Source: Antedon mediterranea
Taxonomy: Eukaryota; Animalia; Echinodermata
DNA: 64,000 bases
Direction of reading: 5' to 3'
NCBI RefSeq assembly: GCF_964355755.1
Contig: NC_092673.1
Coordinates: 4,030,001 to 4,094,000 of the forward strand
Shown: positions 601 through 30,319 of the stretch, piece by piece
How positions within the stretch are numbered: position 1 is the first letter of the stretch
How the letters are laid out: each line of letters starts with the position of its first letter
Notes under the pieces: model-generated
Told to the model about the DNA's origin: nothing
Databases searched by the model: none
What the model saw: only the letters and a program-made list of their open reading frames with translations
Position numbers and translations under genes: made by a program

Positions 601-717
601 CTCATTCTCACAGAATTCCTCATCTTTATCGTTTAAAATTAATTAATTAAATTTCACTATATCACCCGGGCGGTTTAGAATTACTGTTCTTTGCCTGATT
701 TGTTTATATATATGTAT

Positions 718-2500: not shown

Positions 2501-2785
2501 ATAACATCAAGAGCCTCACGTAGACCAGTCAACAATACTAGAGAAACCAAAGAGATTCATTATTATCTCTATGTGAGTAAACTTACGACCACCAGACTAT
2601 TATTTGATTATGAACTTCGAACTGTACTTAACTACATAAGAGTCTAGACTAGCATTATCTCATGCATTGTGTGTTTTGAAACAGCTCAAACAAAGTATAA
2701 AATATTTTATATTAATTTTGTTTTTCGTATTGTATTTCTAAGCTTTGTATTTTACTGCATTTTACAGGTGCATTAAAAGCGTACA

Positions 2786-5700
2786 ATGGGAGGATGCTGC
2801 TGCAAGTGTAATAAAGTAGGTAAGGCTTCAACGATTTAACGTGAATTACAGTAGAAAAGAGCGCTACGGTCACACATAAACGCCCTTAAAACAAGTTGGA
2901 AGAGTTTCAATAGGATCGGACCAGGAAGTTGTAATTAGAGTTGTAAATAACAAACTTCCTACAAAAGCCAATTAATGCTATTTTAAGTATATGTTTTTCG
3001 AACGTAATCCGTTCTAACGAATTAGTATTTCGTTTGAACGGATTACTAATCTGTTCAAACGAATTAGTAATCCGTTCAAACGAATTGCAACATATACAAC
3101 AAGTGCCATTCAAAGTATATGTTGTAATTCGTTTGAACGGATTACTAATCCGTTCAAACAAATTACTAATTTGTTTAAACAGATTAATAATCTGTTCAAA
3201 CGAATTAGGAATCCGTTCAAACGGATTAGTAATTTGTTTAAACGGATTACTAATTTGTTCAAACGAATTACTATTTCGTTCAAACGAATTACTAATTTGT
3301 TCAAACAGATTAGTAATCCGTTTAAACAAATTATTAATTTGTTTAAACAGGTTAATAATCTGTTTGAACGAATTAGGAATCCGTTCAAACGAATTACTAA
3401 TTCGTTCAAACAGATTAGTAATCCGTTTAAACAAATTATTAAACAGCATTATCTCATGCATTTTGTGTTTTGAAACAGCTCAAACAAAGTATAAAGATTT
3501 AATATTTTATATTAATTTTGTTTTTCGTATTGTATTTCTAAGTTTTGTATTTTACTGCATTTTACAGATCCAAAATGCACGCCTAAAGGTAAGGCTTCAA
3601 CAATTTAACATGAATTACAGTAGAAAGGAGCGCCGCGGTCACATAAACGCCCTTAAACAAGCTGGGGGAAGATTCAGGGGACAGGGTAGAAACATGCACC
3701 ACCCATGAACTACTTTTTGATCTATTTTTTTTACTATACAGTCGGTAGTATTAATATTACTGTATGTTAGCACTTTCTCATTTTATCGATATGCCTCTTG
3801 GCAATTGTAATTGTACCAAATATAATCAATCACCCTAAATGCTTAAAATCACATGCATGCACTGGATATAGGTTTTATTATTATAATTGTGTATTAAAGA
3901 GTTTATTTCAATTTTTAATTTACATACAGTAATTTTATATTTTGCTTTTCAGAAACTGTGTTTGAATCGGGAAAAAAAAAACCAATATATCGGTAATTTT
4001 GAAGATTTAATTGGATTTATTAGAGATCATGTCTAAACTATTCTACTGCAGTATGCAGTAATTATAGCATATTTTGGATAATCATACACATTGTTTTTTC
4101 AGTGACTAACTTTGAAACAAAGTGAATTGCAGTAAAAATGTAGATACTGCAGTAAAAATGTAGATACTGCAGTAAAAATGTAGATACTGCAGTAGAATAA
4201 TTTTGCCATCCTTTTTTTGTTCATTTACTTTTGTCCTTTATAAATTTTAAAACCTTGAATACAGTAGCACACTATAATGCTTGGTCTCAAATTGTTTGTG
4301 GTCTAAAGGTTTAAAACTTTATTTATTTACAATTTTGTTAATTTCTTGTTGATTTCTCCAAATCTGGTGTTTCAGGAATACAATAATGCTTGGTCTCAAA
4401 TTGTTTGTGATTTAAAGGCTTTCAAACTTTATTTACAATTTTGGTAATTTCTTGGTGATTTTTCCCAATTAGCATTCCAGCTTTGGTGTTCCAGAAAGAC
4501 CATTTCTTGGCGTTTTCTGAAAAGCGACTAAATGGATCGGAAGACTATGGAGCAATGAAAATTGTAGTTAAAAGAAGGCCATTAGAAGGTGATAATGTCC
4601 AATGGAGTGATGAGAAATGCCTATATCCTGTGTATCCTGCAGAAAAGGGAAAAAGGTTTGGGATTTTTATTTTACTCTTTTTACTATTTTTAAGTCATTT
4701 TATACATTTTGGAAACACGCCGAACATTTTTAAGTAGTTTATATCAGCTGCTGCTTTTACAGATTTTACAGAGCTTTCCCAACTTTCGTAAGTCCTTGAT
4801 TGACACCGAAGTGTTAATATACAGTGTACATTTGTTTAACATTTACATTTGTGTTTACTCCACCCTTAGCTTAGGGTGGAGTAAACACAAATGTTAAATT
4901 AAAATAATGGAGATGAAAATTCACAATACAAAGATATTAGACGTCCATGTCAAGAACAACGATAAATATACATTTTTTCTACAGAAAACAAAAGAATTAT
5001 AAAAGTTTTCATACGAGAATTATAGAATCTTTGATGAAAATGATCATTTTAGATAATCATTGTAGGGGGTATTATTACCTCAGTGAACTGGGTCACAAAA
5101 TAGCCCCAGTGTTCTGTGGATAAGAAAGGACAGTGATTAATTTGCTGATTAAGTTGCTGATTAATTTGCTGTTTGTCATCCTTGGCCACATGTGCCTAAA
5201 TACATAAAATTAAAATTGTAGTATTAGTAGTTAATTATTCAGCTTAATGACTGGCATCGACTTTTCTCTTTTCTGACACATTTAACATTTCTCAACTCTA
5301 CATTTGAATTGTACAATCCTATTTAGAATTGTTATCCTCTTTCAAATGGAAGCATGCTCTGAAATGTTCCTGTATCTCTCTTTTCTTTTTTTTTAAAGGC
5401 CAATGAATCCCGTTCCTATTGTTATCAGTGATAAGCACGTCATCTTACTGTTCAACACTTTCCCGGAGGATAAGGAGGAAAATAAAGTAAGAAACAGTGC
5501 CACCCGCGTATGGAATTTATTGATCACACAGAGTCATGATGGTGGAAAAACGTGGGAACCTTCCCGTGAACTACCAGTTGACGAGATCTTTTTTAATTAC
5601 GCAAATGGGATACCATCTTGTTGCGCTATTGGTATGTTTATTTATTTTCCAATCCAATCAAAGAATTGTCAATCATGGTTATCTATTAGAATGTAAATAA

Positions 5701-8700
5701 AGTTGTGTTTTGTCCAGATAAAAACGAGCAGTTGAGTAGATAATAGTATCCTATAAATAATCGCAGAATTTGGCCTGATACTTCGACTACGCCCCTTTTG
5801 GTTAACTAAAGCTGAAAATATCCACAATGCACATCAGCATATTTGGAAAGTGCCTGGCTTTAACTATGTTTACAGTACGATAGTGTACTTTAGATGCTGA
5901 TGCCCAGTATTGTTTAAATTGAAAGTGATTTTTAAAAATGCAAATGCCCTCTATGTTTTTTTGCTTAACCCTTTGAAGCGTATCCGGATATTCACCCCCT
6001 GGACATTTACCCCCCGGACAACTACCCCCCGGACAACCACCACCTGGACCACTACCCCCTTAGGACAACTACCCCTTTAGGACAACTACCCCCCGGACAA
6101 ATACCCCCCGGACAACTACCCCCTTAGGACAACAACCCCCTTAGGACAACTACCCCCTGGACAACTACCCCCCGGACAATTACCCCCTAGGAACAATTAC
6201 CCCCCGGACAATTACCTCCCGGACAATTACCCCCCGGACAATTTTACCACCCAGAAAACTATCCCTTTAGAACACCCTAACCACCCAGACCATTCAACAA
6301 CCTGACTCTGCAACTATTAATTAATAACTATATTTTAATTCGTTACTTTGACGAATTACTATTCATTATTGTAAACAAAAGTAAAAGATTGAACATAAAT
6401 ATAGCCTGGTGGTATAAACTGAAGATTGTCACACATGATCATAGGATAGTCGAACGTATTATATAGTACTCCATGTATTTACTGTAAAGACTGGGTTCGC
6501 TAATAATAATAATAATTTTTGCGTCAGGACAATGCTTCGATAACCACTGGTCTTAAAAGAATTAATTTTTGTCTCAAATTTGTCATATATGTATTTTTGT
6601 ACACTTGAAGAATAATATCACTTTTGATATTTGACCTCAATGTTCACTCACCGAATAAACGTCGATCTTTAAATAAATTCCCCTCAAATAAACGGTGACC
6701 ATGTCACTCCCATGAAACATCATATGGAATAATCGGCGTCTATTTCCATTAGATTATACCCCCTCCCATTGAATAAACAACTTTCTTCCAATAAATGTCC
6801 ACCTAAAAACCACATAAACAATAAACAGCCCAGGCCGTTTTTTCAATAAATACGGTACTTTAAATCTAGCACATCTAGGGTCTAGCGTGCTGTTAAACAA
6901 AACAGAATAATCGGTTAAAAACGGGTGTTTCGAAACTAGAGACCCGAGACCAGAGACCAGAGACCCGAGACCCAATACGAAAAGGGAGACCTAAATATAC
7001 GAAAAGGGAGACCCACGTACGAAAAGGGAGACCCCACTATACCAAAAGGGAGACCCCACTATACGAAAAGGGAGACCCTAATATACGAAAAGGGAGACCT
7101 AAATATACGAAAAGGGAGACCAAATATACGAAAAGGGAGACCCAAATATACGAAATGGGAGACCTAAATATACGAAAAGGGAGACCCACTATAAGAAAAG
7201 GGAGACCCCACTATACGAAAAGAGAGACCACACTATACGAAAAGGGAGACCCTAATATACGAAAAGGGAGACCCAAATATAGATCTCCCTTTTCGTATTG
7301 GGTCTCGTGTCAGGTCTCTGGTCTCCGGTCTCTAGTTTCGAAACACCCGTTAAAAACAGATGATTTCATTTTTACAGAAACCGGTCCTATATATTTGTCT
7401 ACTTTTGGATTGGGGGGGGGGGGGGGGTAGTTGACCGGGGGGTAGTTGACCGGGGGGTAGTTGTCCTAAGGGGGTAGTTGTCCTAAGGGGGTGGTTGTCC
7501 GGGGGGTAGTTGTCCGGGGGGTTGTTATCCTAAGGGGGTAGTTGTCCTAAGGGGGTAGTTGTCCGGGGGGTAGTTGTCCGGGGGGTAGTTGTCCTAAGGG
7601 GGTAGTTGTCCGGGTGGTAAACATCCGGGGGGTAACTGTCTAGGGGGTAGGTGTCCTAGAACCCTTTGAAGACGTGGCCCGTATATATACGAGGTAATTT
7701 TTTGGTCACTGAATTGCGCTTTTTGAGCATTTGACCTTTGACCTAGGTCAAAAAATAAAAATGCAATTTTTCGAAAGGCCAAAACATTTCACATAGCAAT
7801 AAAACCAACAATTGCAGAAAGTTACAGTCATAAAAATGTATTTTGCATTTTTCCTAAAACTATTAGAAATACCATATTAGCCAGAGTCACTTGGGGTAGA
7901 AACCTCCTGTTTCAAAACATAAATGTACAGTACCAGCTAATTTTTAAACTACGTACACAATTATATTGTATTATACAGGACCTGGTCATGCTATCAAGCT
8001 AGATTCAGGAAAGTTAATTGTGTCTGGAAATGTTAGATGGCCAGAATCAAAATCGAAACTTACACGTAAGTGGTGTGCTAAAAATAGAATGTCAAAATCC
8101 CCATACAGTTGACCCCGAAATTGACCTCTTTCTGTGTGTACTGTATTTCCAAATGGCATATATATTACAATATACCTTCATTGTAATTTACAGTACATTG
8201 TACAGTATGCAACAAAGCCGTAGCGAGAGGTTAAAGCGTGGTTCCCACTAGCGACGCAACGCAAGGACGTAACGCAACGCAAGTGAATTGACCAATCACA
8301 AGCGATGGCTTATTCGCTTGTGATTGCTAACTGTGTATAACTTCGCTTGTCATTGGTTAAAACGCTTAATTGCGTTGCGTTTACGTCCTTGCGTTACATT
8401 CTAGTGGGAACCAAGCATTAAAAACAGTTGGTTGGTAGGTCATTTTGATCATTCCATTATTAATCAGGAGGTAGGTCATTTGAAATACTAGAGTATTATT
8501 AAAACTGATTACTGTGTACTAATATTGTAACATGTAGAAGCGGCCTACGACTTAAATCATAAAGAAAATATACATCGCGATAGCGCCCACACGTTGAGCC
8601 TTGAATTGAGTTTGCTTAGCTTGGCTAGGCCTAAATGCTAAGCCTACATTTTAAAAGGTGTATACTGTATTACTTTATGATTTAAGTCGTAGGCTGCTAC

Positions 8701-10521
8701 TACAAGTTACAATAATAATTATTATTAGTAAGAAAACGTATAATACTGTAGTATTTCAAACAAGCTACTCTCTATTAATAATGGAACGATCCATTTGATG
8801 ATCTGGGTTTTCTAGTTCCATTTTGGAACTAGAAAAGTCAGATCTTGATATCTGAGTTTTCTAGATCTAGAAAAGTCAGATATAGATCTAGATATATCCC
8901 AATTTTATCTTTTTACTTATATTAACTTTCTTTTTGTTCTTTCTCTTTGTTGTGTGTTCCTTGTTTTCATCGTTTATCAAATTTGTTTTGATGTATTAAC
9001 GAATTTGAATTTGTAAATCCAAAATGGATCAATATATTAAAAAGTGTAGTTCTCATTTTCGCTTGGTTTCTTAATTCACAGGTCAATTTGCTATTATAAG
9101 TGACGATACTGGAAAAACCTGGCATATGGGAGGTTTCATTCCGTTGCCTGAATCTACAAATTGTTGTAAAAAAGGAAACAAAATCTCAGGAGGTGAATGT
9201 CAGGTAGGCCTACCAAAGATATAATTAATTTTCAATGATTATTGTAGAAAGTTATGTCATTTATTGTTTACGAGAAAGTCCGACATATTTGAAATACTTA
9301 TTTCTTTTTTTCAATTAAAATTTAAATTATACTTATCACTTATGTCTACAGAAAAACGAGTTAGATTTCTAAATATGTTCATATATTTTTTCTTTGCCCC
9401 ATTATTAATAAATGATTGTTTTTATTGATGCATAAAGTTCTGTCTTCACTATCAAACTTTATGTGACAAAAAAATGTGATGTGCCCATATATAGACATGA
9501 TGATGTCATATCACTACCATCTTTGGGCATATCACTACCATAGTATTTGGGCACACTTTTTTTGTCAAACTAGTTTGATAGTCTAGACAGAGCTTTAGTT
9601 AAAAACTGTAATTATTTATACAAATAATTTGTTATTATTTGTAGCCAGCTGACATGGGATCAGACAATGTTGTGATAAACTGTAGGACTGGAGACCGCAA
9701 TCCACGTTTCCAGTGCTATAGCTATGATGCATGTAAAACATTTAGTGACTCAGAGATGATGCCAACATTAATTGAACCAAAAAATGGTTGCCAGGTTAGT
9801 TTTTTTTTTCACCCATTTCAGGATTCCACTTTCTATAGTAAAATGCATTCAACACACAGATTCTGCTGTGCCTGATTGTTGTCAGTCAACTAGCTGGGGC
9901 CAAATAAAATAACAATTTATTGAGCGATCCCATTTTTGGAGTTTTGTAATGACTTGCGGCAAGTCTACCTTGCACCCTGCATAGCTGTGAGCTATGTCCA
10001 TGTTCAACAAGTTTGTAGTACGGTATTTGATTTGGTCACTACCAGTGACCAGTTTTCGCAATAAAAGGAAACAATCTCTGTTGAAGCCACTGGGTTGTCA
10101 AAGGCCTCTGTGAAAAAGTGGTCAGGTTGAAACCTTACCAACCATACTGGTGGCTACGGCCCTGACTACTGCTTAATTTCCCAAGTTACATAGGGCCTAG
10201 TTATTAAAATAATGTATGTATTATTTGTAGGGGAGCATTATTGGTTTTAAAGCAAACGATTCGGAACGCTTGGCACTGTTTAGTAATCCAGCTACCAGCT
10301 GTGTATGTAGGAAAAACCTTTCAGTGCGTTTAAGCAAAGACCAATCATGCAAGACTTATGATCCTCCAAACATAGTCATCGAACCTGATGATTCTGCTTA
10401 CTCGGATTTGGCAGCATTCATTCAAGACGGTGGGCAAACGTTTGCGTGTCTTTTTGAACGTAATAAGAAAACACGAAATATTGCGTTTACGACCTTTACA
10501 CTTGATGCACTTTTACACTAG
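2786..10521 (+). CDS. Sialidase (neuraminidase, GH33, NEU2/3/4-like), paralog A, 9 coding exons, 386 aa
   Basis: Exons 2786-2819, 3568-3588, 3953-3992, 4473-4655, 5399-5631, 7979-8065, 9082-9203, 9645-9794, 10231-10521; all GT-AG and phase-compatible (1161 nt). Protein starts MGGCCCKCNKVDPKCTPKETVFESGKKKPIYRIPAL; contains YRIP, EKR..ED, MNPVP, GPGH, GGECQ, INCR, RKNL, SAYSDL and Asp boxes SHDGGKTW, SDDTGKTW, SYDACKTF. Confidence 0.9.
2960..3445. repeat. Truncated foldback element built from a 21-bp palindromic minisatellite (intron 1 of sialidase A)
   Basis: Same left arm and AATTCGTTTAAACGAATT+ACT/AGT units as 17421-18895; right arm missing. Confidence 0.85.
5979..7663. mobile_element. Non-autonomous foldback (MULE-like) element with C-rich/G-rich tandem-repeat arms
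   Basis: Left arm (GGACAACTACCCCC)n at ~5990-6270 is the inverse of right arm (GGGGGTAGTTGTCC)n at ~7412-7663; CTTTGAAG is duplicated on both flanks (5971-5978 and 7664-7671). Confidence 0.75.
6923..7348. mobile_element. MITE (MULE-like, 9-bp TSD) with internal 20-21-bp tandem repeats
   Basis: TIR GGGTGTTTCGAAACTAGAGACC; TSD GTTAAAAAC at 6914-6922 and 7349-7357; internal (ATACGAAAAGGGAGACCCAAAT)n. Confidence 0.85.
8235..8418. mobile_element. Harbinger-type MITE (unit A only)
   Basis: TIR AGCGTGGTTCCCACTAG / CTAGTGGGAACCAAGCAT, TAA on both sides; the corresponding site in unit B lacks it. Confidence 0.75.
9436..9594. mobile_element. ~160-bp Harbinger-type MITE (AGCTCTGTCTACACTATCAAAC family)
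   Basis: TIR-bounded with TWA flanks. Further copies at 29145-29301, 32964-33121, ~33545-33682, ~35035-35128, 49873-50029, 53692-53849, ~54273-54410, 57362-57522, 58449-58595, 61025-61163 and degenerate at ~13658-13794. Confidence 0.8.
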
Positions 10522-10570
10522 CCAACACTTGCTCTTCTTTCTTGACCTCATTTACCTACATAAATAGGTC

Positions 10571-11236
10571 ATTAACTTACCAAGTTAATCTTTAGCTGAC
10601 CTAGTTACTCTTTAACTTACCAAGTTACTCTTTAGCTGACCCAGATACTCTTTAGCTGACCCAGATACTCTTTAGCTGACCCAGATACTCTTTAGCTGAC
10701 CAAGAATGCCCCAGTGCATTTACCCATGAAAGGCTAAACTATTTAAGCCTGGAAGTTAACATTCTTGGATGGTTGTTATATGACAATCTCAGCATTGATT
10801 CTTTGTTATGTTATATATTAATTATACAATTATTTTAGCCGACCTAGTCAATCTTTAGCCGACCCAATTACTCTTTAGCTGACCAAGAATGCCTTCTTGC
10901 CCCAGTGCATTTACCCATGAAAGGCTAAACTATTTAAGCCTGGAAGTTAACATTCTTGGATGGTTGTTATATGACAATCTCAGCATTGATTCTTTGTTAT
11001 GTTATGTTATGTTATATATTAATTATACAATTATTTTAGCCGACCTAGTCAATCTTTAGCCGACCCAATTACTCTTTAGCTGACCAAGAATGCCTTCTTG
11101 CCCCAGTGCATTTACCCATGAAAGGCTAAACTATTTAAGCCTGGAAGTTAACATTCTTGGATGGTCGTTATATTACAATCTCAGCATTGATTCTTTGTTA
11201 TGTTATGTTATATATTAATTATACAATTATTTTAGC
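10571..11236 (+). repeat. Tandem repeats just 3' of the sialidase A stop codon
   Basis: 20-bp unit TTAGCTGACCTAGTTACTCT (~6 copies) followed by three copies of a ~185-bp unit; B/C have more 20-mers but a single long unit. Confidence 0.85.
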
Positions 11237-11849
11237 ATTTAAAAGGACAGAACTGGAATGACATATATTTATAATTGCTGGACGGTTTAAAGTTATATAA
11301 ATATACAATAGTTTTATGCTGTGTAATTGTACTTATCTTGCAATTGAATTAAAGTTGATATACTGTAACTACCTTAAATTGGACATCATGTATCGCATTG
11401 TTGTTTGACTATTAAAATACACTTTAATTACTAGTACTTATTTTTGTTGAAACTAAATTATGCAGTAAGTAAATTACAGTATGACAAGCAGAAATCATGA
11501 AATTAAAAATTCACTTATTAAAGATGATGAAATAAAGATTAATTATGAACATGGTTAGTGTTTTGTATCTTATTCATATTTTATTCCAGTTGAGCTTTCT
11601 CATTTCAATTGAATCTTGTTTTATTTTCCACTATATTGGTGGACTTGTTTGATGTTTGTGTACTTAATTTATCTTAACGGCAAATAGAATTTGCAATACA
11701 GAATATAGCTTTATTATTTACTTTTATAGTACTGTATTATACAGGTATTAAAATTATTTAAAAATAAATTACAAAACATTATTGTTCAATTTTTACTGAA
11801 CACCAAAAAGTGTTTATATTATTTCTAAAAAATATAATACATATTCCTT

Positions 11850-12275
11850 TGCACTTTGAGAGTTTGGTGTAATGGTTATGTATCCACAGTCACAGTTGAG
11901 ATCGCTGGTTCAAGTCCCGCTGAGATTTTTTTAAATTATTATTAGGTCTATTATTTTTTTATTTCTTTTTTCTGACCCTTCAAAATTTAACCACAATTAT
12001 ATGATGAGTCATTGTATGATGAGTCATTGTTCATTGTGGCTAAGTTTGGTGAGAATCGGATAAAAAATAGTTTTTTGTTAGTTGTGACCTTAACCTATGA
12101 CCTTTTCCCCATAAATTTGAACTCGTCCGAGTTTTTGGGGTATAGATCACTGTTTCCAAATTTGGTGAAAATCGGATGAAAACTGTGGCCTCCAGGCTTT
12201 TCACAGACACACACACACACCCACCCACACAAACATACAGGGGTGAAAACATAACCTCCTTGGCGGAGGTAATAA
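11850..12275 (-). mobile_element. Non-autonomous Helentron-type (HINE/DINE-like) repeat with a tRNA-like segment at its far end
   Basis: Terminus TTATTACCTCCGCCAAGGAGGTTATG with a short inverted repeat followed by a (GT)n microsatellite; A/B-box-like TGGTGTAATGG...GGTTCAAGTCC at ~11864-11918. Copies at ~31270-31638 and ~52000-52366. Confidence 0.55.
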
Positions 12276-12619
12276 TATAAAAAACAGTACTATGATGTCT
12301 TAGTGATCATAATAGGAAATACAAAGTTAGTATATTTAACTTGCACTGGCTTTTAAAAGCTGCACTATATACTGTATTTCAAAGCATTTTTTGTCTTGAT
12401 TGTTGCTTTAGAGCCTGTCCTGAATATATTTATTGCTATGCATGTCAATTTGACTTTTATAACTCCATGCGTTTGCTTTTATAGGATATACAGTATTATG
12501 TATATTCTTTTTTAAAGACATCTTTACACTAATAAATGTCGATTACTGTTGTACTTCTTTTTGAATCTGATTATTCTAATGGCAAGTTGACATGATTACT
12601 ACCACTACAATATTAATGT

Positions 12620-12810
12620 ACTGTAAAGGTTCCGTATTAAATTCTGAACATGGGGTAATGAGCTGTTGTAGGGTGGCAAGTTCCTTTCCACAGCACCTTG
12701 TCCTCCCTAGCATTTTCAACCAACTACTCATTTACAGCTGAGTAGACTGGGAGTTGTCAGGAATGGAACCCAGGTCTCTGTATGACAGTCAAGTGTCCTA
12801 ACCACTCAAA
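12620..12810 (-). mobile_element. Degenerate tRNA-derived SINE
   Basis: Minus strand AGTGGTTAGGACAC...GGGTTCCATTCC head and CCCAGTCTACTCAGCTGTAAATGAGTA central motif; similar SINE heads at ~13360-13430 (-) and ~34625-34700 (+). Confidence 0.45.
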
Positions 12811-13111
12811 TACAGTACCTAACTGTACTTTATAATAGCTAGAAACCATAGTATTACAAGATTTAAAGTGTGTCCACATATCAATTGGATATAAATTATT
12901 AGTACTGATGTATATATGCGACCTGAGTATTGAATCTCCCACTCCCTTATAATACCACAACCTCTTGAAGATCCATGATCCTGTGCAATACAAGGAATGC
13001 AACTTAAGTACTGTAAGTACCCACATATTCTAAATATGCATTATTTATATACTCTGTTGATATTCTGTATATCTCTGGATTGATTTGAATGGTTGTCTTG
13101 AATTCCTTGTA

Positions 13112-14370: not shown

Positions 14371-14586
14371 CCGAGAATGTTAAAGAGTCGCTATCCAATC
14401 GAGTTTGAACAATACCATGAAAGCCCCCAGTGGTCTGATTGTTAGGACATCTGCATATCAAGCAGGCGGTCCGAGTTCGACTTTTACTCATTCTCACAGA
14501 TTTCCTCATCTTTATCGTTTAAAATGAATTAATTAAATTTCAGTATATCACCGGGCGGTTTAGAATTACTGTTCTTTGCCTGATTT

Positions 14587-14616
<30 letters not shown>

Positions 14617-14620
<4 letters not shown>

Positions 14621-16165: not shown

Positions 16166-16538
16166 TCCAATAGTTAGTAAGTTAAAACTGCTTGGTGTAA
16201 TAATCCAAAATGACCTCAAATGGGGTTCAAATGTTCAAATGATATAACATCAAGACCCTCACGTAGACCAGTTAACAATACTAGAAACCATAGAGATTAT
16301 GTTCATTATTATCTCTATGTGAGTAAACTTACGCCCACCAGACTATTATTTGATTATGAACTTCGAACTGTACTTAACTACATAAGAGTCTAGACTAGCA
16401 TTATCTCATGCATTGTGTGTTTTGAAACAGCTCAAACAAAGTATAAAGATTTAATATTTTATTTTAATTTTGTTTTTCGTATTGTATTTCTAAGCTTTGT
16501 ATTTTACTGCATTTTACAAGGTGCATTAAAAGTGTACA

Positions 16539-19500: not shown

Positions 19501-22500
19501 CCAACTTTTCAGCGAAAATATCGGGTTTTCCCCAATTTGTATCAACGGAGTCTGGCAAAAATAGAAAGACAATTAATGCAGCAACTATACAACGTCAGGC
19601 TAGGTATATAGCTAGCGTACGATGTTCGTACGTTACCGATGTTTACCAGCTAGGCCTAAAAAACTAAGCCTAGCCAGGCTAGGCCTAAGACCGTCCACGA
19701 GAGGTCGATCGCCGCGAGCTACTTAGGTAGTGCATTGTTTCTCACTTTTTATCATAATTTACCATAAAACGTACATTTAAGACAAGGAATGACATGGTTT
19801 AATGTTTTTAAAGTGATATACATGTATTATTTTCCAAAAAACGTCCAAAATTGCAGGGAAGGGGTCTTTAACCATTTTGTTTTCTTGTCAATTGGATATA
19901 GGGACCCCTAATAATCGAGAAAACACAATGTTTATATTATTTTTTCTATTTTATTCATATGGTACGCAATTAAAAGCGTTAAAAAAAAGTGTTAGATGAA
20001 CATCAGAACCAAAAAAGAAGAAGAATAAACCTAGCTCAAAAGATAAAGTGCACAAGAAAGAAATTGGATGTGTTTGTACTGCAAAGAAGATTATTCCGTG
20101 TCAGTTTCAGGAGAAATCTGTATCATGTTCTCTGTCTGTGAAGAATAGGCTCATGAAGATTGTGCTGGTATCAATGAATCAGATGCAGACTTCACATGTG
20201 AATTATGTTGCTAGCTAGATTTTATTTAAAGTGACATTGTAGATAAATGTATTGCGGACTCTCTACAACAGGACTATAAATAGACCTATATCGATTACAA
20301 CATACTTTAATACTTATTATTATTGTTTTTAATACATTATTCATCATCTAAACTCACTAACTTATGTATAAACACACTTTCTATAAATAAATAAGTTTTA
20401 AGCAGATCTTTCATGCATATTGTCTTATTTTTAACGATGTGACAAAGTGCCCCACTGCATGTGACAACTTGCCCCATGTACGGGGCAAGTTGTCACATCT
20501 GACCCATTGGGGAAAAAGTGCTCCCCTGGGTCACGGTCAAGAGTATTTTCACAATCAATGGTCCCCTTATATAGACCATACCCTAGGCTATATTTGAAGG
20601 TACAAACTAAGTTAATTTAGGCTAAAACTTAATATTTATAGGAGATTAGAATGAATTTGTGACTTTTAGCCCCTATCTCCCCTAATCGTATAGTTGAAAT
20701 TAATAGGTTTTGTTTTGAGGGTGCAAGAGAGTACCTTACATTTCTCAGACTTCAGCGACATTTTTCAATTGGTCATCCATTGTCCGAGTCATGCTTGGAG
20801 TGCATGTGAGTCGTCTATGGTCGAAATTATTTTATTTATTTTGAAGTCATCAGCAAACATAAGGCATCTGGAATTTTCGAAGAGACTTTTACAAAAATGT
20901 TAAACAATAGGGGCCCTAAAATTGAACCCTGTGGCACTCCAGAGAGGAAAGGGAGGGGGTTAGATGTTTCGCCTTCAAGTGTCACTATCTGGAATCGACC
21001 ACTAAGGTAGCTGTCAAACCAAGAATATAGAATTCCATTTACGCCAAATTTATTAAGTTTAAAGAGCAATAATTTATGCGACAGTTTATCAAATGCTTTA
21101 CTAAAATCTGTGTATATAATATCACATTGCTTTTTTGATTCGATGGCTTCATACACGGTAGTCATGAGAGTTTCGAGGTTTGTTTCACATGATCTACCGG
21201 GAAAGAAGCCATACTGTTGTTCAGAAATTAAGGGGAAAATATGGTTTATCAGTTGTTTACTTACAATCTTTTCAAATATTTTGGATATTGTTGGGAGTAG
21301 AAATATGGGTCTATAATTTTGAACGTTAGTCTTAGAACCACTACTACTATGGGGTAGTATGGGATTACTGATACTCTGCTTGGTTCAATCAAGTAATTAT
21401 AATATACCGGTATGCAACAGAAACATGAATAAGTTTTTATACTGGCATTATTAAACTTTAGACTTTCATACCAGATCCACCTTATTTTTCATTTACTCTA
21501 ATGTGAAAGATAATCATAATCATGATCTTTACTCCATTGAATGAATTTCCAACATTCCGTATTTACTGTATGCTCGCAGTTGATGCCCCGTTGGAAATTT
21601 ATGTGATGTGTCATTTTTGTATTTTTTCTATTATATTGTTTGTGGATGCCGTATGTTCCTATTATTATTGTTATATAGCCTAATTCATAGGCCAGAAACC
21701 ATAAATATTCATTATCTCTAAGCCCACCAGACTATTATTTGATTATATGAACCTCGAACTGTCCTTACATAAGAGTCTAGACTAGCATTACTGTATCTCA
21801 TGCATTGTGTGTTTTGAAACAGCTCAAACAAAGTATAAAGATTTAATATTTTATATTAATTTTGTTTTTCGTATTGTATTTCTAAGTTTGTATTTTACTG
21901 CATTTTACAGGTCCAGTATGCACGCCTAAAGGTAAGGCTTCAACGATTTAACATAAATTACAGTAGAAAAGAGCGCTGCGGTCAATAAACGCCCTTAAAC
22001 AAGTAGAGGGAAGATTCAGGGGACAGGGTAGAAACATGCACCACCCATGAACTACTTTTTGATCTATTTTTTTACTATACACTCGGTAGTATTAATTAAT
22101 ATTACTGTATGTTAGCACTTTCTCATTTTCTCGATATGCCTCTTGCCAATTGTAATTGTACCAAATATAATCAATCACCCTAAATGCTTAAAATCACATG
22201 CATGCACTGGATATAGGTTTTATTATTATAATTGTGTATAAAAGAGTTTATTTCAATTTTTAATTTACATACAGTAATTTTATATTTTGTTTTTCAGTAA
22301 CTGTGTTTGAATCCAGCCGCAAGAAAAAAAAAACAAAATATCGGTAATTTTAAAGATTTAATTGGATTTATTAGAGATCATGTCTAAATTATTCTACTGC
22401 AGTATGCAGTAATTATAGCATATTTTGGATAATCATACACATTGTTTTTTCAGTGACTAACTTTGAAACAAAGTGAATTGCAGTAAAAATGTAGATACTG

Positions 22501-25500
22501 CAGTAAAAATGTAGACACACTATAATGCTTGGTCTCAAATTGTTTGTGGTCTAAAGGTTTAAAACTTTATTTATTTACAATTTTGTTAATTTCTTGTTGA
22601 TTTCTCCAAATCTGGTGTTTCAGGAATACAATAATGCTTGGTCTCAAATTGTTTGTGACAAAACTTTCAAACTTTATTTACAATTTTGTTGATTTTTCCC
22701 AATTAGCATTCCAGCTTTGGTGTTCCAGCATAACCATTTCTTGGCGTTTTCTGAAAAGCGACTAACTGGAAAGCAAGACTATGGACCAATGGAAATTGTA
22801 GTTAAAAGAAGGCCCTTAGAAGGTGGCAACTGGAGTGATGAGACATGCATATATCCTGTAACAGAAACTGGAAAAAGGTTTGGGATTTTTATTTTACTCT
22901 TTTTACTATTTTTAAGTCATTTTATACATTTTGGAAACACGCCGAACATTTCTTAAGTAGTTTATATCAGCTGCTGCTTTTACAGATTTTACAGAGCTTT
23001 CCCAACTTTCGTAAGTCCTTGATTGACACCGAAGTGTTAATATACAGTCTACATTTGTTTAACATTTGTGTTTACTCCACCCTTAGCTTAGGGTGGAGTA
23101 AACACAAATGTTAAATTAAAATAATGGAGATGAAAATTCACAATACAAAGATATTAGACGTCCATGTCAACAACAACGATAAATATACATTTTTTCTACA
23201 GAAAACAAAAGAATTATAAAAGTTTTCATACGAGAATTATAGAATCTTTGATGAAAATAATCATTTTAGATAATCATTGTAGGGGGTATTATTACCTCAG
23301 TGAACTGGGTCACAAAATAGCCCCAGTGTTCTGGGGATAAGAAAGGACAGTGATTAATTAATTTGCTGTTGGTCATCCTTGGCCACATGTGCCTAAATAC
23401 ATAAAATTAAAATAAAATTGTAGTATTAGTAGTTAATTATTCAGCTTAATGACTGGCATCGACTTTTCTCTTTTCTGACACATTTAACATTTCTCAACTC
23501 TACATTTGAATTGTACATTCCTATTTAGAATTGTTATCCTCTTTCAAATGGAAGCATGCTCTGAAATGTGGTCCCTGTATCTCTCTTATCTTTTTTTTTA
23601 AAGGCCAATGAATCCCGTTCCTATTGTTATCGATGAAACTCACATCATCTTACTGTTTAACACTTTCCCGGAGAAAAAGCCGGAAAACGATATAGTAGAA
23701 AGTGACAGACGCTTATGGAATTTATTGATCACACACAGTTATGATGGTGGAAAAACGTGGGGACCTTCCGTTGAACTACCAGTTGACGAGATCTTTTCTA
23801 ATTTCGAAAATGGGATACCATCTTGTTGCGCTATTGGTATGTTTATTTCTTTTCCAATCCAATCAAAGAATTGTCAATCATGGCTATCTGTTAGAATGTA
23901 AATAAAGTTGTGTTTTGTCAAGATAAAAACGAGCAGTTGAGTTGATAATATAGTATCCTATAAATAATCGCAGAATTTGGCCTGATACTTCGACTACGCC
24001 CCTTTTGGTTAACTAAAGCTGAAAATATCCACAATGCACATCAGCATATTTGGAAAGTGCCTGGCTTTAACTATGTTTACAGTACGATACTTTAGATGCT
24101 GATGCCCAGTATTGTTTAAATTGGAAGTGATTTTTAAAATGCCCTCTATGTTTTTTTGCAAAGTTACAGTCATAAAAATGTGTTTTAAATTTTTCTTAAA
24201 AATATTAAAAATACCATATTAGCCACAGTCACTTGGGGTAGAAACCTCCTGTTTCAAAACATAAATGTACAGTACCAGCTAATTTTTTTAAACTACGTAC
24301 ACAATGATATTGTATTATACAGGACCTGGTCATGCTATCAAGCTGGATTCAGGAAAGTTAATTGTGTCTGGAAATGTTAGATGGCCAAAATCAAAATCGA
24401 AACTTACACGTAAGTGGTGTGCTAAAAATAGAATGTCAAAATCCCCATACAGTTGACCCCAAAATTGACCTCTTTCTGTGTGTACTGTATTTCCAAATGG
24501 CATATATATTACAATATACCTTCATTGTAATTTACAGTACATTGTACAGTATGCAACAAAGCCGTAGCGAGAGGTTAAAACCAGCAAGGCACAGATGGTT
24601 CAACAGTTACGGGGAAATGGCAAAATTAGCACTGTGTGGTCATGTTACAAGAGTTGTCAAAACAATATAGATTATCTGATAAAAAGCCTTTTGCCATTTT
24701 CCCCTGACTGTTAAATATAATTATTAATATACAATATGACGATCTCTGATGGGGAATTGTGGTGGGTAGTGAAAATTGAAAATTTAGGACGAGGAGAGCG
24801 CTCATCTGCCTCATGCTGGCCACAGCCCTGGTATTCATAAGCCCTTGATACTCAATCCCCAATTTTAACAAGGCCGTAGCGAGGGGTGTCTAGAAAACTC
24901 AGATCTCAGATATATCTGACTTTTCTAGATCTAGAAAACTCAGATATCTGACTTTTCTAGATCTAGAAAACTCAGATATCAATATCTGACGTTTCTAGTT
25001 CCAGAATGAAACTAGAAAACTCAGATCATCAAATGATTGGTTGGTAGGTCATTTGGATCATTCCATTATTAATCAGAAGGTAGGTCATTTGAAATACTAG
25101 AGTATTATTAAAACTGATTACTGTGTAGGCCTACTAATATTGTAACATGTAAAAGCGTCCTACGACTTAAATCATAAAGAAAATACAGTGCATGTTACAG
25201 TTAAAATGTAGGCTTAAAAATTAGGTATGTACGAGTTGGTGTGGGTACGAGCTGGTTGAGGTACGAGTTAGCCAAGATAGGAATAGGTACGAGTTATTTT
25301 AGGTACGAGTTGACCACTTCTAGCCTTGTAGGGCCAGGCCTACTCTTCGCGATAGGGTGTCTCGAAAACAGAGACCTCGAAAACAGAGACCAGCTGAGAC
25401 CCGAGACCCAGGGTCTCTGTTTTCGAGGAAATCTCGAAAACAGAGACCCCACTAAAACGTCTCAATATTACGTATTATAGGGGTCTCTGTTTCGAGTTCT

Positions 25501-28500
25501 CGAAAACAGAGACCCCCACTAAAACGTCTAAATAATACGTTATTATGGGGTCTCTGTTTTCGAGATTTTATCGAAAACAGAGACCCCCACTAAAGCGTCT
25601 CAATATTACATTATATAGGGGGTCTCTGTTTTCGAGAAAAACTCGAAAACAGAGACCCCCCACTAAAACGTCTCAATATTAAGTCATTAAATTACCTTAT
25701 ATAGGGGGTCTCTGTTTTCGAGAAAAACTCGAAAACAGAGACCCCCACTAAAACGTCTCAATATTAAGTCAATATTACGTTATATAGGGGGTCTCTGTTT
25801 TCGAGAAAAACTCGAAAACAGATACCCCCATTAAAACTTCTTAATATTAAGTCAATGTTACGTTATATATGGGGTCTCTGTTTTCGAGTTTTTCTAGAAA
25901 ACAGAGACCCCCACTAAAACGTCTCAATATTACGTCAATATTATGTTATATAGCGGTCCCCACTAAAACGTCTCAAAATCACAGAATGACGTATCAGTAA
26001 TAAACGGTAACTGATATGCCGATCAAAGAACATGCCGCAACGATAAGAAGAGATTGATGAATTCTTGAACGCGTGTGAAAAGACTGTCATTTTGTAATAC
26101 AAGGTCGACGTCCTAGGAGTAAGATGTATAAATGCATGCTGTGCCTTTTAGAAGCTAAAAAGCTGGAGATTATTTCAAAAGCTGACACTAGTTTCTCGGG
26201 TCTCTGGTCTCTGTTTTCGAGACACCCCTTCGCGATACATCGCGAGATAGCGCCCACACGTTGAGCCTTGAATTGCTTAGCTTGGCTAGTAGAATGAATG
26301 AGGTAGAAGCCAGCCGGAGAGGTAGAAATTCTCATATGACTTTTCTAGACCAGTTTTTTCTGGGGAATCCAAATATATTGGGTAAACAGGCTGTAACCTG
26401 AGAACTTTCGCGTGAGGGCGCTTTTTTCAAAATGGCTGCCAGTTACAATAGACTATGATATCTTGGCAACCACTGGTGATACAGAGTTGATTTTGGTGTC
26501 AAATTGGTCGGAATGTACATGTTCCTATTTGATGTAATAGAACATTTTGTCCGAAAATGGCCGGAAATACCTCTATTGACCTTTGACCCAATATCTAACA
26601 GATACCATATCTCCGTAACTACTTGACACAGAAAGTTGTAATTGGTGTCAAACTATCCAGAATATAGATGTTTATATTCAAACTAATAGAACATTATCTG
26701 TAAAAATGACCGGAAATAACTTTAGTGACCTTTGACCCAAAATGCAAGACATTTCTCCTATCTGATCACGTTTAGTAGTATCTTGTCAATTAATTCATTT
26801 TGTGCCGATTGGAGGTTGACATTCTCATATTATTTTCTGGACCAGTTTTTCATGTGTAATCCTAATATATGAGATGAATAAGCCATAACAAGGCCAAGAA
26901 TTTAATTCTTTTACTACATACATACATGCTTCCCTTTAGTGTTTAAGTCTGTATGTCGTGTATTAATCTTCAAGATCGCTCACATCACTGCCATCTGAAA
27001 AGTCTTCATATTCATAACTGGAAGCTTCTGGAATCAAAAGCAAAATTTGTTGACACATTCTGCAACCTTGGAGTGTCAGCTGTTCCATCAAAAGAGTTGT
27101 ATGAGGAACTTGAAGAGTATGTTTCACTATTGTATGGAGTGAAGGGGAAAAGTGTAAATCAAGCAAGATATGATATCTTCATCAGAAAGTTTTCCAGACA
27201 CAAGATTACTGATATATCATTACTGCCACCATGTCAGCAGACCCCTTGAGTTTCATATACTTAGAGCAAACTTCATTGCAAAAGAATGGCAATCAGCAGA
27301 CGTCAATGATTTTGTCAACAACAGTACACACAATGGATGGAATGAACAAATGGAGCCTAAATGGATTGAGACAGTGATGCCCACTGATGTCCAGGAACTG
27401 TTTACACATAATGAATATGAAGACTTTTCAGATTGCAGTGATGTGAGTGATCTTGAAGATTAATACACGACATACAGACTGAAACACTAAAGGGAAGCAT
27501 GTATGTATGTAGTAAAAGAATTAAATTCTTGGCCTTGTTATGGCTTATTAATCTCATATATTCGGATTGCACATGACAAACTGGTTCAGAAAATAATATG
27601 AGAATGTCAACCTCCAATTGGCACAAAATAAATTAATTGACAAGATATTACTAAATGTGATCAGATAGGAGAAATGTCTTGCATTTTGGGTCAAAGGTCA
27701 GTAACGTTATTTCCGGTCATTTTTACAGATAATGTTCTATTAGTTTGAATATAAACATCTTTATTCTGGACAGTTTGACACCAATTACAACTTTCTGTGT
27801 CGAGTAGTTACGGAGATATGATATCTGTTGGATATTGGGTCAAAGGTCAATAGAGGTATTTCCGGCCATTTTCGGACAAAATGTGCTATTACATCAAATA
27901 GGAACATGTACATTCCAAACATTTTGACACCAAAATCAACTCTCTATGACCAGTGGTTGCCAAGATATCATAGTCTACTGTAACTGGTGGCCATTTTGAA
28001 AAAAGCGCCCTCACGCGAAAGTTCTCAGGTTACAGCCCGTTTACCCAATATATTTGGATTCCCCAGAAAAAACTGGTCTAGAAAAGTCATATGAGAATTT
28101 CTACCTCTCCGGCTGACACCTACCTCATTCATAGCCTAGTCTATAGGCCTAAATGCTAAGCCTACATTTTATAAACAAAAGGTGTATACTGTATTTCTTT
28201 TTTAAGTCGTAGGCTGCTACTACAAGTAGTCTGGGTTCCAGACGGAGTTTTGTCTTAATATTAGTTAAAAGATAAATATTTTGGCACATATGGCGTTTCA
28301 TACGTATACTACTTGATTTTGAAATCGCGGTTGAAATAAAAACAAATAAATAAAAAAAAAAGATAATACAGACTTGGGGCAAGTCTACTACTACAAGTTA
28401 CAATAATAATTATTAATTATTAGTAAGAAAACGTATAATACTGTAGTCTTTCAAACAAGCTACTCTCTACTAATAATGGAACGATCCATTTGATGATCTG

Positions 28501-30259
28501 GGTTTTCTAGTTCCATTTTGGAACTAAAAAACTCAGATCTTGATATCTGAGTTTTCTAGATCTAGAAAAGTCAGATATAGATCTAGATATATCCCAATTT
28601 TTTCTTTTTACTTATATTAACTTTCTTTTTGTTCTTTCTCTTTGTTGTATGTTCCTTGTTTTCATCGTTTATCAAATTTGTTTTGATGTATTAAAGAATT
28701 TGAATTTATATTTGTAAATCCAATATGGAACAATATATTAAAAAGTGTAGTTCTCATTTTCACTGGGTCTCTTAATTCACAGGTCAATTTGCTATCATAA
28801 GTGACATTAACAATAATGACAATAATGGAGCAACCTGGCATATGGGAGGTTTAATTTCGTTGCCTGAATCTAAAAATTGTAAAAAAATAAAGAAAATCTC
28901 AGGAGGTGAATGTCAGGTAGGCCCACCAAAGATAATTAATATTCAATGATTATTGTAGAAAGTTATGTCATTTATTGTTTACGAGAAAGTCCGACATATT
29001 TGAAATACTTATTTCTTTTTTTCAATTAAAATTTAAATTACTTATCACTTATGTCTACAGAAAAACGAGTTAGATTTCTAAATATGTTCATATATTTTTT
29101 CTTTGCCCCATTATTAATAAATGATTTTTTTTATTGATGCATAAAGTTCTGTCTTCACTATCAAACGTTATGTGACAAAAAAATGTGATGTGCCCATATA
29201 TAGACATGATGATGTCATATCACTGCCATCTTTGGGCATATCACTACCATTATTTGGGCACACTTTTTTTGTCAAACTAGTTTGATAGTCTAGACAGAGC
29301 TTTAGTTAAAAACTGTAATTATTTATACAAATAATTTGTTATTATTTGTAGCCAGCTGACATGGGATCAGACAATGTTGTGATAAACTGTAGGACTGGAG
29401 ACAGCAATCCACGTTTCCAGTGCCATAGCTCTGATGCATGTGAAACATTTAGTGACTCACAGTTGATGCCAACATTAATTGAACCAAAAGGTGGTTGCCA
29501 GGTTAGTTTTTTTTTTCACCCATTTCAGGATTCCACTTACTAATATAGTAAAATGCATTCAACATACAGATTCTGTGCCTGATTGTTGTCAGTCAACTAG
29601 CTGGGGCTAAATCAAATAAAAATTTATCGAGCGATCCCATTTTTGGAGTTTTGTAATGACTTGCGGCAAGTCTACCTTGCACCCTGCATAGCTGTGAACT
29701 ATGTCCATGTTCAACAAGTTTGTATTATTTGATTTGGTCACTACCAGTGATGTAGTCACAATATAAGTGGTCCGGTTTTCGCAATAAAAGGAAACAATCT
29801 CTGTTGAAGCCACTGGGTTGTCAAAGGCCTCTGTGAAAAAGAGGTCAGGTTGAAACCTTACCCGCCATACTGGTGGCTACGGCCCTGACTACTGCTTAAT
29901 TTCCCAAGTTACATAGGGCCTAGTTATTAAAATAATGTATGTATTATTTGTAGGGGAGCATTATTGGTTTTAAAGCAAACGATTCGAAGCTTCCTGAAGA
30001 CCCTGAACGCTGGGCACTGTTTAGTAATCCAGCGAACAGCAAATCGAGGAAGAACCTTTCAGTGCGTTTAAGCAAGGGCCAATGCCAGAATTGGTATGAC
30101 CCTCCAAACATAGTCATCGAACGTCATGGTTCTGCTTACTCAGATTTGGCAGCATTCATTCAAGACGGTGAGCAAAAGTTTGCGTGTCTTTTTGAACGTA
30201 ATAAGACATCGAGACGACGATATATTGAGTTTACGACCTTTACACTTGGTAAAGTGTAA
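16539..30259 (+). CDS. Sialidase (NEU2/3/4-like), paralog B, 9 coding exons, 392 aa
   Basis: Exons 16539-16569, 21911-21931, 22298-22343, 22707-22877, 23604-23836, 24323-24409, 28783-28916, 29352-29501, 29954-30259 (1179 nt, no internal stop). Starts MGGCCLKSKVGPVCTPKVTVFESSRKKKKTKYRIPAL; all catalytic motifs retained. Confidence 0.9.
17421..18895. mobile_element. Foldback DNA element with long TIRs and an internal 21-bp palindromic minisatellite
   Basis: Left end TACGAAAGCCCATTAATGCCATTTTAAG mirrors right end CTTAAAATGGCATTAATGGGCTTTCCATA over >180 bp; interior is ~60 units of an 18-bp palindrome plus a 3-bp spacer. Confidence 0.88.
18900..20682 (+). mobile_element. Remnant of a pogo-like DNA transposon with a decayed PHD finger
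   Basis: 20062-20214 translates NWMCLYCKEDY...GEICIMFSVCEE*AHEDCAG...FTCELCC*; repeated GGGGCAAGTTGTCACA motifs; right end ...CTCCCC followed by TA. Left boundary uncertain. Copy at ~40258-41410. Confidence 0.5.
19242..19867. mobile_element. 626-bp non-autonomous Kolobok-like element (unit B only)
   Basis: TTAA at 19238-19241 and 19868-19871; imperfect TIR AGCCCCATTCCCTAC / GCAGGGAAGGGGTCT (RR...YY termini); unit C has a single TTAA at the empty site (~40596-40599). Confidence 0.85.
20690..21350 (-). mobile_element. LINE (CR1/L2-like) reverse transcriptase fragment
   Basis: YTDFSKAFDKL and GVPQGSILGPLLFNIF motifs in ORF 20836-21165, FADD after a frameshift. Copy at ~41418-42078. Confidence 0.88.
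25355..26227. mobile_element. MULE-like non-autonomous element with internal hairpin-repeat array
   Basis: TIR GGGTGTCTCGAAAACAGAGACC; TSD CTTCGCGATA at 25345-25354 and 26228-26237; internal GGGTCTCTGTTTTCGAG...CTCGAAAACAGAGACCC units. Copy at 46083-46955. Confidence 0.85.
26290..28143. mobile_element. Academ-like non-autonomous transposon with ~725-bp TIRs
   Basis: TAG...CTA termini, 3-bp TSD TAG (empty site GGCTAGGCC in unit A at ~8623); interior encodes frameshifted VNQARY...LLPPCQQT/LEFHILRANFIAKEW...HNGW...PKW, resembling the C-terminal region of Academ-type proteins. Confidence 0.8.
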
Positions 30260-30319
30260 AGGACTAGCCAACACTTGCTCTTCTTTCTTGACCTCATTTA
30301 CCTACAAATATAATAGGTC

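What the first reader, a model, noticed from the sequence alone, without database searches (positions are those of the whole stretch)
2786..30259. Tandem sialidase paralogs with exons far more divergent than their introns (apparent diversifying selection)
Seen: hand alignment of A vs B gives about 12 replacement vs 3 synonymous-only codons in exon 4 (plus two in-frame indels), 20 vs 2 in exon 5 (~31 nt differences in 233) and 7 vs 0 in exon 8. Intron 4 between them differs by only about 10 substitutions and a few indels in ~720 nt. All indels in the coding exons preserve frame, and the Arg triad, Asp, Glu and Tyr catalytic motifs are unchanged. Changes cluster in the EKR..D loop (LNGSED vs LTGKQD) and the FPEDKEENKVRNSATR/FPEKKPENDIVESDRR loop. 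Established: these align to the two mobile substrate-contacting loops of human NEU2 (around Asp46 and Glu111), and exon-faster-than-intron divergence is typical of toxin, immune and gamete-recognition gene families. Internal control: the linked SIRT5 exon 7 shows the opposite pattern (5 synonymous, 1 replacement). Inference: an expanding sialidase family under arms-race-type selection on glycan specificity or inhibitor evasion, possibly with gene conversion homogenising the introns.
Basis: partly seen in the sequence, partly recalled or inferred. Interest (0 to 1): 0.9.

Follow-up and report, generated by a model that had tools for sequence, protein, structure and literature searches.

The report
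Fast-evolving tandem feather star sialidases
A feather star carries three side-by-side copies of a sialic-acid-cutting enzyme gene whose surface loops differ far more than the surrounding DNA, which points to positive selection, likely from conflict with microbes or parasites, although the driver and the expression of these copies are untested.

Summary
Observation confirmed. Whole-gene dN/dS is only borderline (1.70, p=0.066), but active-site-face loops give 3.3 (p=0.0002), opposite-face loops 2.2, strands 0.65; neutral loops of any age reproduce the pattern in at most 1 of 1500 simulations. Catalytic residues and frames are intact. Replacements favour loops in general; the two faces do not differ significantly. 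The genes belong to a long-branch, repeatedly expanding clade, found here only in crinoids, with a predicted N-terminal lipid anchor, distinct from two conserved echinoderm sialidases. Introns look partly homogenised. Expression and the selective agent are unknown. The scan noted a similar exon-over-intron pattern in another genome (boule-like paralogs) and found selection unproven there; here it holds. The pattern is known from opsins and venom genes; my searches found no report of it for an animal sialidase.

The parts
2786..10521 (+). Sialidase A, 9 coding exons (2786-2819, 3568-3588, 3953-3992, 4473-4655, 5399-5631, 7979-8065, 9082-9203, 9645-9794, 10231-10521), 386 aa
   Evidence: exon 9 is 100% identical to the 172-aa partial model P0001 of Antedon mediterranea
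16539..30259 (+). Sialidase B, 9 coding exons (16539-16569, 21911-21931, 22298-22343, 22707-22877, 23604-23836, 24323-24409, 28783-28916, 29352-29501, 29954-30259), 392 aa, 79% identical to A
37897..50987 (+).
514..14415 (.). Repeat unit A (upstream region, sialidase A, broken SIRT5)
   Evidence: self-alignment
14416..35775 (.). Repeat unit B; matches unit C up to about 34980 except for 4 substitutions, one 2-nt indel and one 630-nt insertion, then continues into a different, broken SIRT5 5' end
35776..56444 (.). Repeat unit C, ending in the only SIRT5 copy with an intact first coding exon
3568..3588 (+). 21-nt micro-exon 2; its flanks resemble those of exon 1 (2651-2899 vs 3445-3665, 79%), so it likely arose by internal duplication; lengthens the Cys-rich N-terminus
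4473..4655 (+). Exon 4 of A with the Asp56 loop (NEU2 loop 42-49); 19 of 171 nt differ from B
5399..5631 (+). Exon 5 of A with the Glu120 loop (NEU2 loop 107-122); 31 of 233 nt differ from B; peak of 20 differences in 100 nt at 5435-5534
10231..10521 (+). Exon 9 of A with Arg317 and Tyr347 and their variable loops; 37 of 288 nt differ from B
4656..5398 (+). Intron 4 of A, 8 substitutions in 717 aligned nt vs B
13100..14370 (-).
32480..35730 (-). Broken SIRT5 of unit B: same first-exon lesions as in A plus a 12-nt insertion in the next exon (low end approximate)
53219..56444 (-). SIRT5 of unit C, first coding exon open from an ATG at 56444; SIR2 match (low end approximate)
19242..19871 (.). 630-nt insertion flanked by a TTAA duplication, in intron 1 of B and absent from C; distinguishes the two copies

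Best explanation
These are tandem duplicates of a crinoid sialidase whose loops have fixed amino-acid changes two to four times faster than silent sites while the catalytic core stayed intact, likely because each copy was selected to act on different sialylated targets in a conflict with microbes or parasites. Shown: the array, the open frames, the excess of replacements in loops, and the place of the genes in a long-branch clade found here only in crinoids. Inferred steps: (1) a copy of an unlinked parental-type gene (P0002, here D) came to lie next to SIRT5 and the sialidase-SIRT5 block was duplicated in tandem, breaking the extra SIRT5 copies; (2) A and B each accumulated loop changes under positive selection (31 residues derived in A, 24 in B, 18 unpolarised against D), while unequal exchange partly homogenised introns and recently copied the C-type block over unit B; (3) the proteins are predicted to be lipid-anchored to a membrane through Gly2 and nearby cysteines, with no signal peptide; (4) changed loops would alter which linkages, sialic-acid modifications or carrier molecules are cleaved, or which foreign proteins can bind the enzyme. 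Positive selection about 0.85; a microbe or parasite conflict as its cause about 0.5.
For: GY94 F3x4 on 376 codon pairs: active-site-face loops w=3.29 (p=0.0002), opposite-face loops 2.19 (p=0.035), strands 0.65; nine loops defined beforehand in PMC3431349 w=3.95 (p=5e-5); site mixture 2dL=27.2 (35% of sites, w about 7). Second positions 43/376 vs four-fold sites 6/122, p=0.022. Simulated neutral loops at 8 divergence levels and 0-20% doublet mutations gave 38 or more top-loop replacements with 12 or fewer silent codons in at most 1 of 1500 runs in each of 24 settings. Frames and catalytic residues kept. Conserved echinoderm sialidases are 79-80% identical between Antedon and Anneissia, this clade 49-59%, and A vs B is 79%. 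Both faces of the propeller vary, which fits whole-surface antagonism (inference). Crinoids have unusual gangliosides (passage and reference titles, PMC4393008).
Against: Whole-gene w is 1.70, p=0.066 (F3x4), and 1.32 with bootstrap CI 0.87-2.15 by NG86. Only two distinct sequences; 12 silent-only codons. Sialidase loops are variable across the family anyway (58% and 56% of top and bottom loop residues differ between D and Anneissia P0008). No evidence here names the selective agent. A cytosol-side anchor places the enzyme away from most sialoglycans (the same unresolved topology problem is described for human NEU3, abstract of PMC5482835). Public annotation holds only a 172-aa piece of A and no B/C protein came up in three searches.
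Confidence: 0.5

Rival explanations
1. Positive selection is real but driven by reproduction: gamete or brooding-stage sialidases tracking species-specific egg-coat or sperm sialoglycans.
For: Same selection statistics. Echinoderm egg-jelly polysialic acids are species-specific and mammalian sperm shed NEU1 and NEU3 (passages, PMC9630641); PMC3431349 links the NEU5 group to gamete glycans. Restricted expression would fit the incomplete annotation (inference).
Against: No expression data; divergence is between paralogs in one genome, not between species; no crinoid sperm sialidase paper found.
Confidence: 0.22
2. A burst of ordinary neofunctionalisation after duplication: copies specialise on the animal's own varied gangliosides or dietary glycans, with no antagonist.
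For: Highest w in the nine loops around the catalytic crevice (27/73 replaced vs 45/283 elsewhere, p=1.3e-4), which PMC3431349 proposes tune substrate range.
Against: Opposite-face loops are also above 1; fast change spans the whole clade, including stem branches and Anneissia copies, rather than one burst.
Confidence: 0.16
3. No positive selection: an old duplication with relaxed exons, whose introns were homogenised by gene conversion.
For: Introns (2.1%) are below flanks (3.9%) and four-fold sites (4.9%, p=0.047) and are heterogeneous; a SIRT5 exon has 5 silent changes in 110 nt; strands have w=0.65, high for an enzyme core; a similar case in this scan was read this way.
Against: Silent sites in the same exons are at 4.9%, not 11-13%; neutral loops fail at every age simulated; intron divergence does not clearly rise toward exon edges (12/373 within 25 nt vs about 2% further in); nine frame-keeping indels and no stops.
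Confidence: 0.08
4. Exon segments were imported by short gene conversion from a diverged donor paralog or its cDNA, mimicking acceleration.
For: Divergence stops at exon edges; 24 of 88 differing codons carry two changes; at least two other paralogs exist.
Against: Derived states alternate between A and B without long runs and by definition do not match D; in exon 5 the fourth paralog shares one listed site with B; imported sequence from a constrained donor should be rich in silent changes, which it is not.
Confidence: 0.04

Closest known systems
NEU5 group of invertebrate deuterostome sialidases (Giacopuzzi et al. 2012, PMC3431349)
   Same: GH33 propeller with all six catalytic residues, many exons, branches among echinoderm, hemichordate and amphioxus sequences outside vertebrate NEU2/3/4; duplications already known in sea urchins.
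   Different: Forms a separate long-branch clade, recovered only from crinoids (SH-aLRT 100, stem 1.24), beside the two conserved Antedon/Anneissia types; lacks the longer loop 6; has Gly2 and, in A/B, a cysteine cluster; dN/dS above 1 in loops is not described in the passages read.
Human NEU2 (PDB 1vcu) and NEU3
   Same: Best solved-structure match for paralog D (TM-score 0.81); no signal peptide; NEU3 is S-acylated (abstract); NEU3 is tandemly duplicated in fish, frog and lizard.
   Different: About 28% identity; 9 coding exons vs 2; residues at NEU2 Tyr179, Tyr181 and Leu217 differ.
Primate red/green opsin duplicates (Fawcett and Innan review, PMC3924837)
   Same: Tandem paralogs with exons more divergent than introns, attributed to conversion in introns plus selection keeping exon differences (passages).
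   Different: There a narrow peak around two key residues; here 76 replaced codons over most exons with w above 1, and four-fold sites close to flank level, so acceleration contributes more than conversion.
Snake venom three-finger toxin and PLA2 gene families
   Same: Introns highly similar, exon segments divergent after duplication (passages, PMC2474615; listing).
   Different: Those are secreted toxins; this is an enzyme without a signal peptide in a suspension feeder, with no sign of a venom role.

Membership tests
GH33 exo-alpha-sialidase | Arg triad, Asp acid/base, Glu/Tyr nucleophile pair (NEU2 R21, R237, R304, D46, E218, Y334) | tested here: met
   A Arg32, Arg254, Arg317, Asp56, Glu238, Tyr347, all identical in B; mapped NEU2 to P0002 (the HMMER alignment slips at E218, placed by motif) and P0002 to A/B
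GH33 exo-alpha-sialidase | Six-bladed beta-propeller with Asp boxes | tested here: met
   Shown for paralog P0002 (72-74% identical): pLDDT 93, TM-score 0.81 to NEU2, Pfam BNR_2. A and B themselves were not folded; A lacks the Trp of the last Asp box by the codon alignment
GH33 exo-alpha-sialidase | Sialidase activity | not testable with these tools
   needs an enzyme assay
NEU5 subgroup | Groups with invertebrate deuterostome NEU5 outside NEU2/3/4 | tested here: inconclusive
   Quick IQ-TREE tree of 38 rows: outside the vertebrate clade, joined to ambulacrarian sequences with SH-aLRT 84 only, long branch, no NEU1 row
NEU5 subgroup | Loop 6 longer than in NEU2-4 | tested here: not met
   Hemichordate P0005/P0006 carry an insertion of about 12 residues there; A, B, D and Anneissia copies do not. 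Hence not filed as NEU5 proper
NEU5 subgroup | Subgroup residues E92, L223, E245, F294, C355 | tested here: inconclusive
   The numbering does not fit the amphioxus sequence held (P0132), 0 of 5 match, so it could not be mapped
NEU5 subgroup | Exon structure unlike NEU2/3 (2 exons) and NEU4 (3) | tested here: met
   9 coding exons; junction positions not compared with the paper's figure
Positively selected gene duplicates | dN/dS above 1 at a class of sites | tested here: met
   whole-gene value borderline
Positively selected gene duplicates | Both copies functional and expressed | tested here: inconclusive
   Frames kept through 9 indels and about 100 changes; no transcript data for A or B/C
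Concerted evolution with selected peaks (opsin type) | Introns cluster by species, exons by ortholog | not testable with these tools
   No A or B ortholog from a second species was available
N-myristoylated / S-acylated proteins | Gly2 with small residue at position 6, nearby Cys (motif recalled, no predictor run) | tested here: inconclusive
   Gly2 in A, B, D and 2 of 2 Anneissia models with an intact start; Ser/Thr6 in D and both; Cys6 in A, Leu6 in B

The most novel reading that the evidence does not exclude
Crinoids have their own third class of NEU5-like sialidase, lipid-anchored and evolving like an immune or venom gene family: repeated birth and death, copy-number variation between haplotypes and strong selection on the whole propeller surface, making it a host-encoded weapon in a glycan arms race (for example stripping sialic acid from microbes or parasites) rather than a housekeeping enzyme.
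Probability: 0.3. Interest if true: 0.75.

Novelty: new variant of a known kind. Interest (0 to 1): 0.5.

Why it matters
Animal sialidases are usually treated as conserved housekeeping or signalling enzymes, with the arms race running between host sialic acids and microbial sialidases or lectins. A host sialidase pair that differs at 21% of residues while neighbouring non-coding DNA differs by 2-4% is a natural mutagenesis series: three closely related enzymes (A, B, D) with identical catalytic residues and different loops make it directly testable how loops set linkage and modification specificity on the unusual echinoderm sialic acids. It also corrects annotation: the public set holds only a fragment of A.

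Tried and rejected
No whole genome is held for this window, so flanking paralogs and the second haplotype could not be read. A homolog search with the full spliced protein A was not run; family placement therefore rests on exon 9, paralog P0002 and alignments, and A and B were not folded, so loop classes are transferred from the P0002 model. No RNA holder listed for the stretch; run X7 (RNA is a guess) holds a contig joining exons 4 and 5 of paralog D and a contig of a fourth paralog, and none of A or B/C type in exon 5: not evidence on expression. Run X5 (organism B) showed only a D-like exon 5. ML values were dropped because the optimiser failed (negative LRTs); one search replaces them. CpG hypermutation rejected: 8 of 99 exonic differences are CpG-type transitions vs 6 of 71 in introns. 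Multi-nucleotide mutation as sole cause rejected (adjacent mismatches are about 2-2.4 times random in exons, introns and flanks alike; simulations). Assembly artefact for A vs B rejected: both exon-5 types are present as contigs in DNA runs. The careful tree did not finish; the quick one is cited. Paper searches without a report of this locus or of selection on an animal sialidase: (open-access library only). No supplements were read.
Full report
Anatomy. Self-alignment shows three tandem units: A 514-14415, B 14416-35775, C 35776 to about 56444. Each has a nine-exon sialidase on the plus strand and SIRT5 sequence on the minus strand. All splice sites are GT-AG and the frames are open: A 386 aa, B and C 392 aa with identical coding sequence. 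B and C differ over about 20.7 kb by 4 substitutions, one 2-nt indel and a 630-nt TTAA-flanked insertion in B. Only unit C has a SIRT5 with an intact first coding exon; the A and B copies are 5'-truncated with a 10-nt deletion and a 1-nt insertion, A also lacks middle exons, and the 5' end in B differs from both others (SIR2 match). This third version suggests, by inference, that unit B is a recent recombinant in which C-type sequence replaced an older unit.

Organism and relatives. Exon 9 of A is 100% identical to a 172-aa partial model from the feather star Antedon mediterranea; the next hit is a 376-aa paralog, P0002 (D), on a different chromosome-sized contig. No B/C protein appeared among the listed hits (7 of 7, 120 of 146 and 120 of 402 hits shown). 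In three DNA runs of one sample, exon 5 occurs as A, B/C and a third type whose changes match D codon by codon (read by hand), at contig depths near 1:2:2 (17.9:35.3:35.7, 145.6:317.5:299, 13.9:29.5:30.3; the first two A values by subtraction). Contig depth is not a copy number; the ratio is compatible both with A-B-C on one haplotype and no close copy on the other, and with B and C being two haplotypes assembled in tandem. A fourth, more distant paralog is also present.

The observation. After trimming 5 nt around gaps, exons differ at 99 of 1040 sites, introns at 71 of 3432 and flanks at 195 of 5018 (p=1.5e-23 and 1.8e-12). Merging mismatches within 2 nt still leaves 6.2%, 2.0% and 3.1%. Exon 6 (2 of 87) is the exception. 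Large insertions in introns 1, 5 and 6 were left out as unalignable.

Is it selection? Four-fold degenerate sites differ at 6 of 122 (4.9%, CI 1.8-10.4), similar to flanks (p=0.48) and slightly above introns (p=0.047); first, second and third codon positions carry 42, 43 and 27 differences. Whole-gene dN/dS is 1.32 by NG86 (bootstrap CI 0.87-2.15) and 1.70, 1.81 or 2.11 by pairwise GY94 with F3x4, F1x4 or equal frequencies (p=0.066, 0.043, 0.009); leaving out codons within three of a gap (310 of 376 kept) gives 2.9, p=0.005. Classes were set from the AlphaFold model of D (pLDDT 93) and from nine loops published for NEU2 (PMC3431349), not from the A/B differences. Active-site-face loops: 38 of 114 codons replaced, w=3.29; opposite-face loops 19 of 71, w=2.19; strands 15 of 171, w=0.65. 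The nine published loops: 27 of 73 vs 45 of 283 (p=1.3e-4), but against opposite-face loops alone p=0.21, and top vs bottom p=0.41. A neutral-versus-selection site mixture gives 2dL=27.2. Simulations with neutral loops, constrained strands, divergence 0.03-0.18 and 0-20% doublets met the observed top-loop and silent counts jointly in at most 1 of 1500 runs per setting; the loop-to-silent ratio alone reached p=0.055 only at divergence 0.03, where the simulated counts are a fifth of those observed. All nine internal indels keep frame, against 26 of 86 in non-coding DNA, so both lineages were under selection to make protein. Polarised on D, 31 changes are A-derived, 24 B-derived and 18 unresolved, interleaved.

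Conversion. Introns are more alike than flanks (p=1.7e-6) and unequal among themselves (0.9-5.3%, p=0.002), and the SIRT5 control exon has 5 silent changes in 110 nt. Some homogenisation or constraint of introns is therefore likely and inflates the exon-intron contrast, but silent sites in the same exons show that it cannot create the loop excess.

Family context. In a quick IQ-TREE tree of 38 rows, A and B pair (99), join D (99) and four Anneissia models (100) on a stem of 1.24 changes per site. Antedon also has two conserved types, 80% and 79% identical to their Anneissia partners, while this clade is 49-59% identical between the genera; the A-B path (0.27) exceeds that between those conserved orthologs (0.20-0.22). 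Some Anneissia models are fragments, so their count is soft. The clade lacks the longer loop 6 of NEU5, so I call it NEU5-like, not NEU5. D and two Anneissia models start with Gly2 and Ser/Thr6; A and B add cysteines and a duplicated micro-exon, predicting lipid anchoring (motif recalled; no predictor run).

Mechanism. Shown: array, intact catalytic set, excess loop replacements. Inferred: duplication from a D-like gene, selection on both copies, partial intron homogenisation, membrane anchoring, altered substrate or partner range. I commit to conflict with microbes or parasites as the driver (about 0.5) because change covers both faces and persists across the clade with repeated expansion; reproduction (0.22) and plain substrate specialisation (0.16) remain open. 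Nothing here shows expression.

Literature seen: passages of PMC3431349, PMC3924837, PMC4393008, PMC9630641, PMC2474615; abstract and outline of PMC5482835; listings only. None of these listings showed this locus or positive selection on an animal sialidase; subscription papers are not covered. Earlier findings: none near this window; one analogous case.

Verdict. Real and statistically supported, a known evolutionary pattern in an unexpected gene class, within a fast clade so far seen only in crinoids. New variant of a known kind; interest 0.5.

Noticed in passing
window 17437-18890 (and 38795-40248; shorter at 2960-3442): Long inverted-repeat element built of 21-nt subrepeats (foldback-like) in intron 1; gives spurious stop-free frames of 215-275 codons
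   Followed up: no
window 20839-21384 minus strand (copy in unit C): Reverse-transcriptase fragment of a LINE, RVT_1 E=2e-25, in intron 1 of B
   Followed up: partly
window 26294-28132: DNA-transposon-like insertion in intron 6 of B with 722-nt inverted arms (95.6%) and a broken internal frame without Pfam match
   Followed up: partly
window 20040-20210: Degenerate Cys/His-rich, PHD-finger-like frame with a stop, read by eye; probably part of a transposon
   Followed up: no
window 57158-57977 plus strand: TMEM230-like gene head-to-head with the intact SIRT5 (Pfam E=1e-19)
   Followed up: partly
window 61429-64000 minus strand: Exons of an HSP70-family gene (weak HSP70 match; HSPA12-like by recalled motif)
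   Followed up: partly
window 13455-13564 vs 53505-53614: The broken A-unit SIRT5 differs from the intact copy here by 5 silent and 1 replacement change, as if this exon came from a long-diverged functional allele; unexplained
   Followed up: partly
window 5399-5631, runs X7 and X5: D-type exon 5 of organism A vs organism B differs by 7 replacement and 4 silent changes among the 40 rows shown of 57 (hand count): the parental-type gene also changes quickly
   Followed up: partly
window 9432-9598, 32960-33125, 57355-57526 and others: A short high-copy inverted-repeat element of about 165 nt, many copies in the window
   Followed up: no
window 272-514 and 10651-11236: Local tandem duplications: 120-nt perfect repeat at the left edge of unit A and a three-copy repeat of about 200 nt behind the A stop codon
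   Followed up: no
P0127/P0128 and P0130/P0131: Crinoids keep two conserved NEU5-like types, one with a hydrophobic N-terminal stretch resembling a membrane anchor
   Followed up: partly
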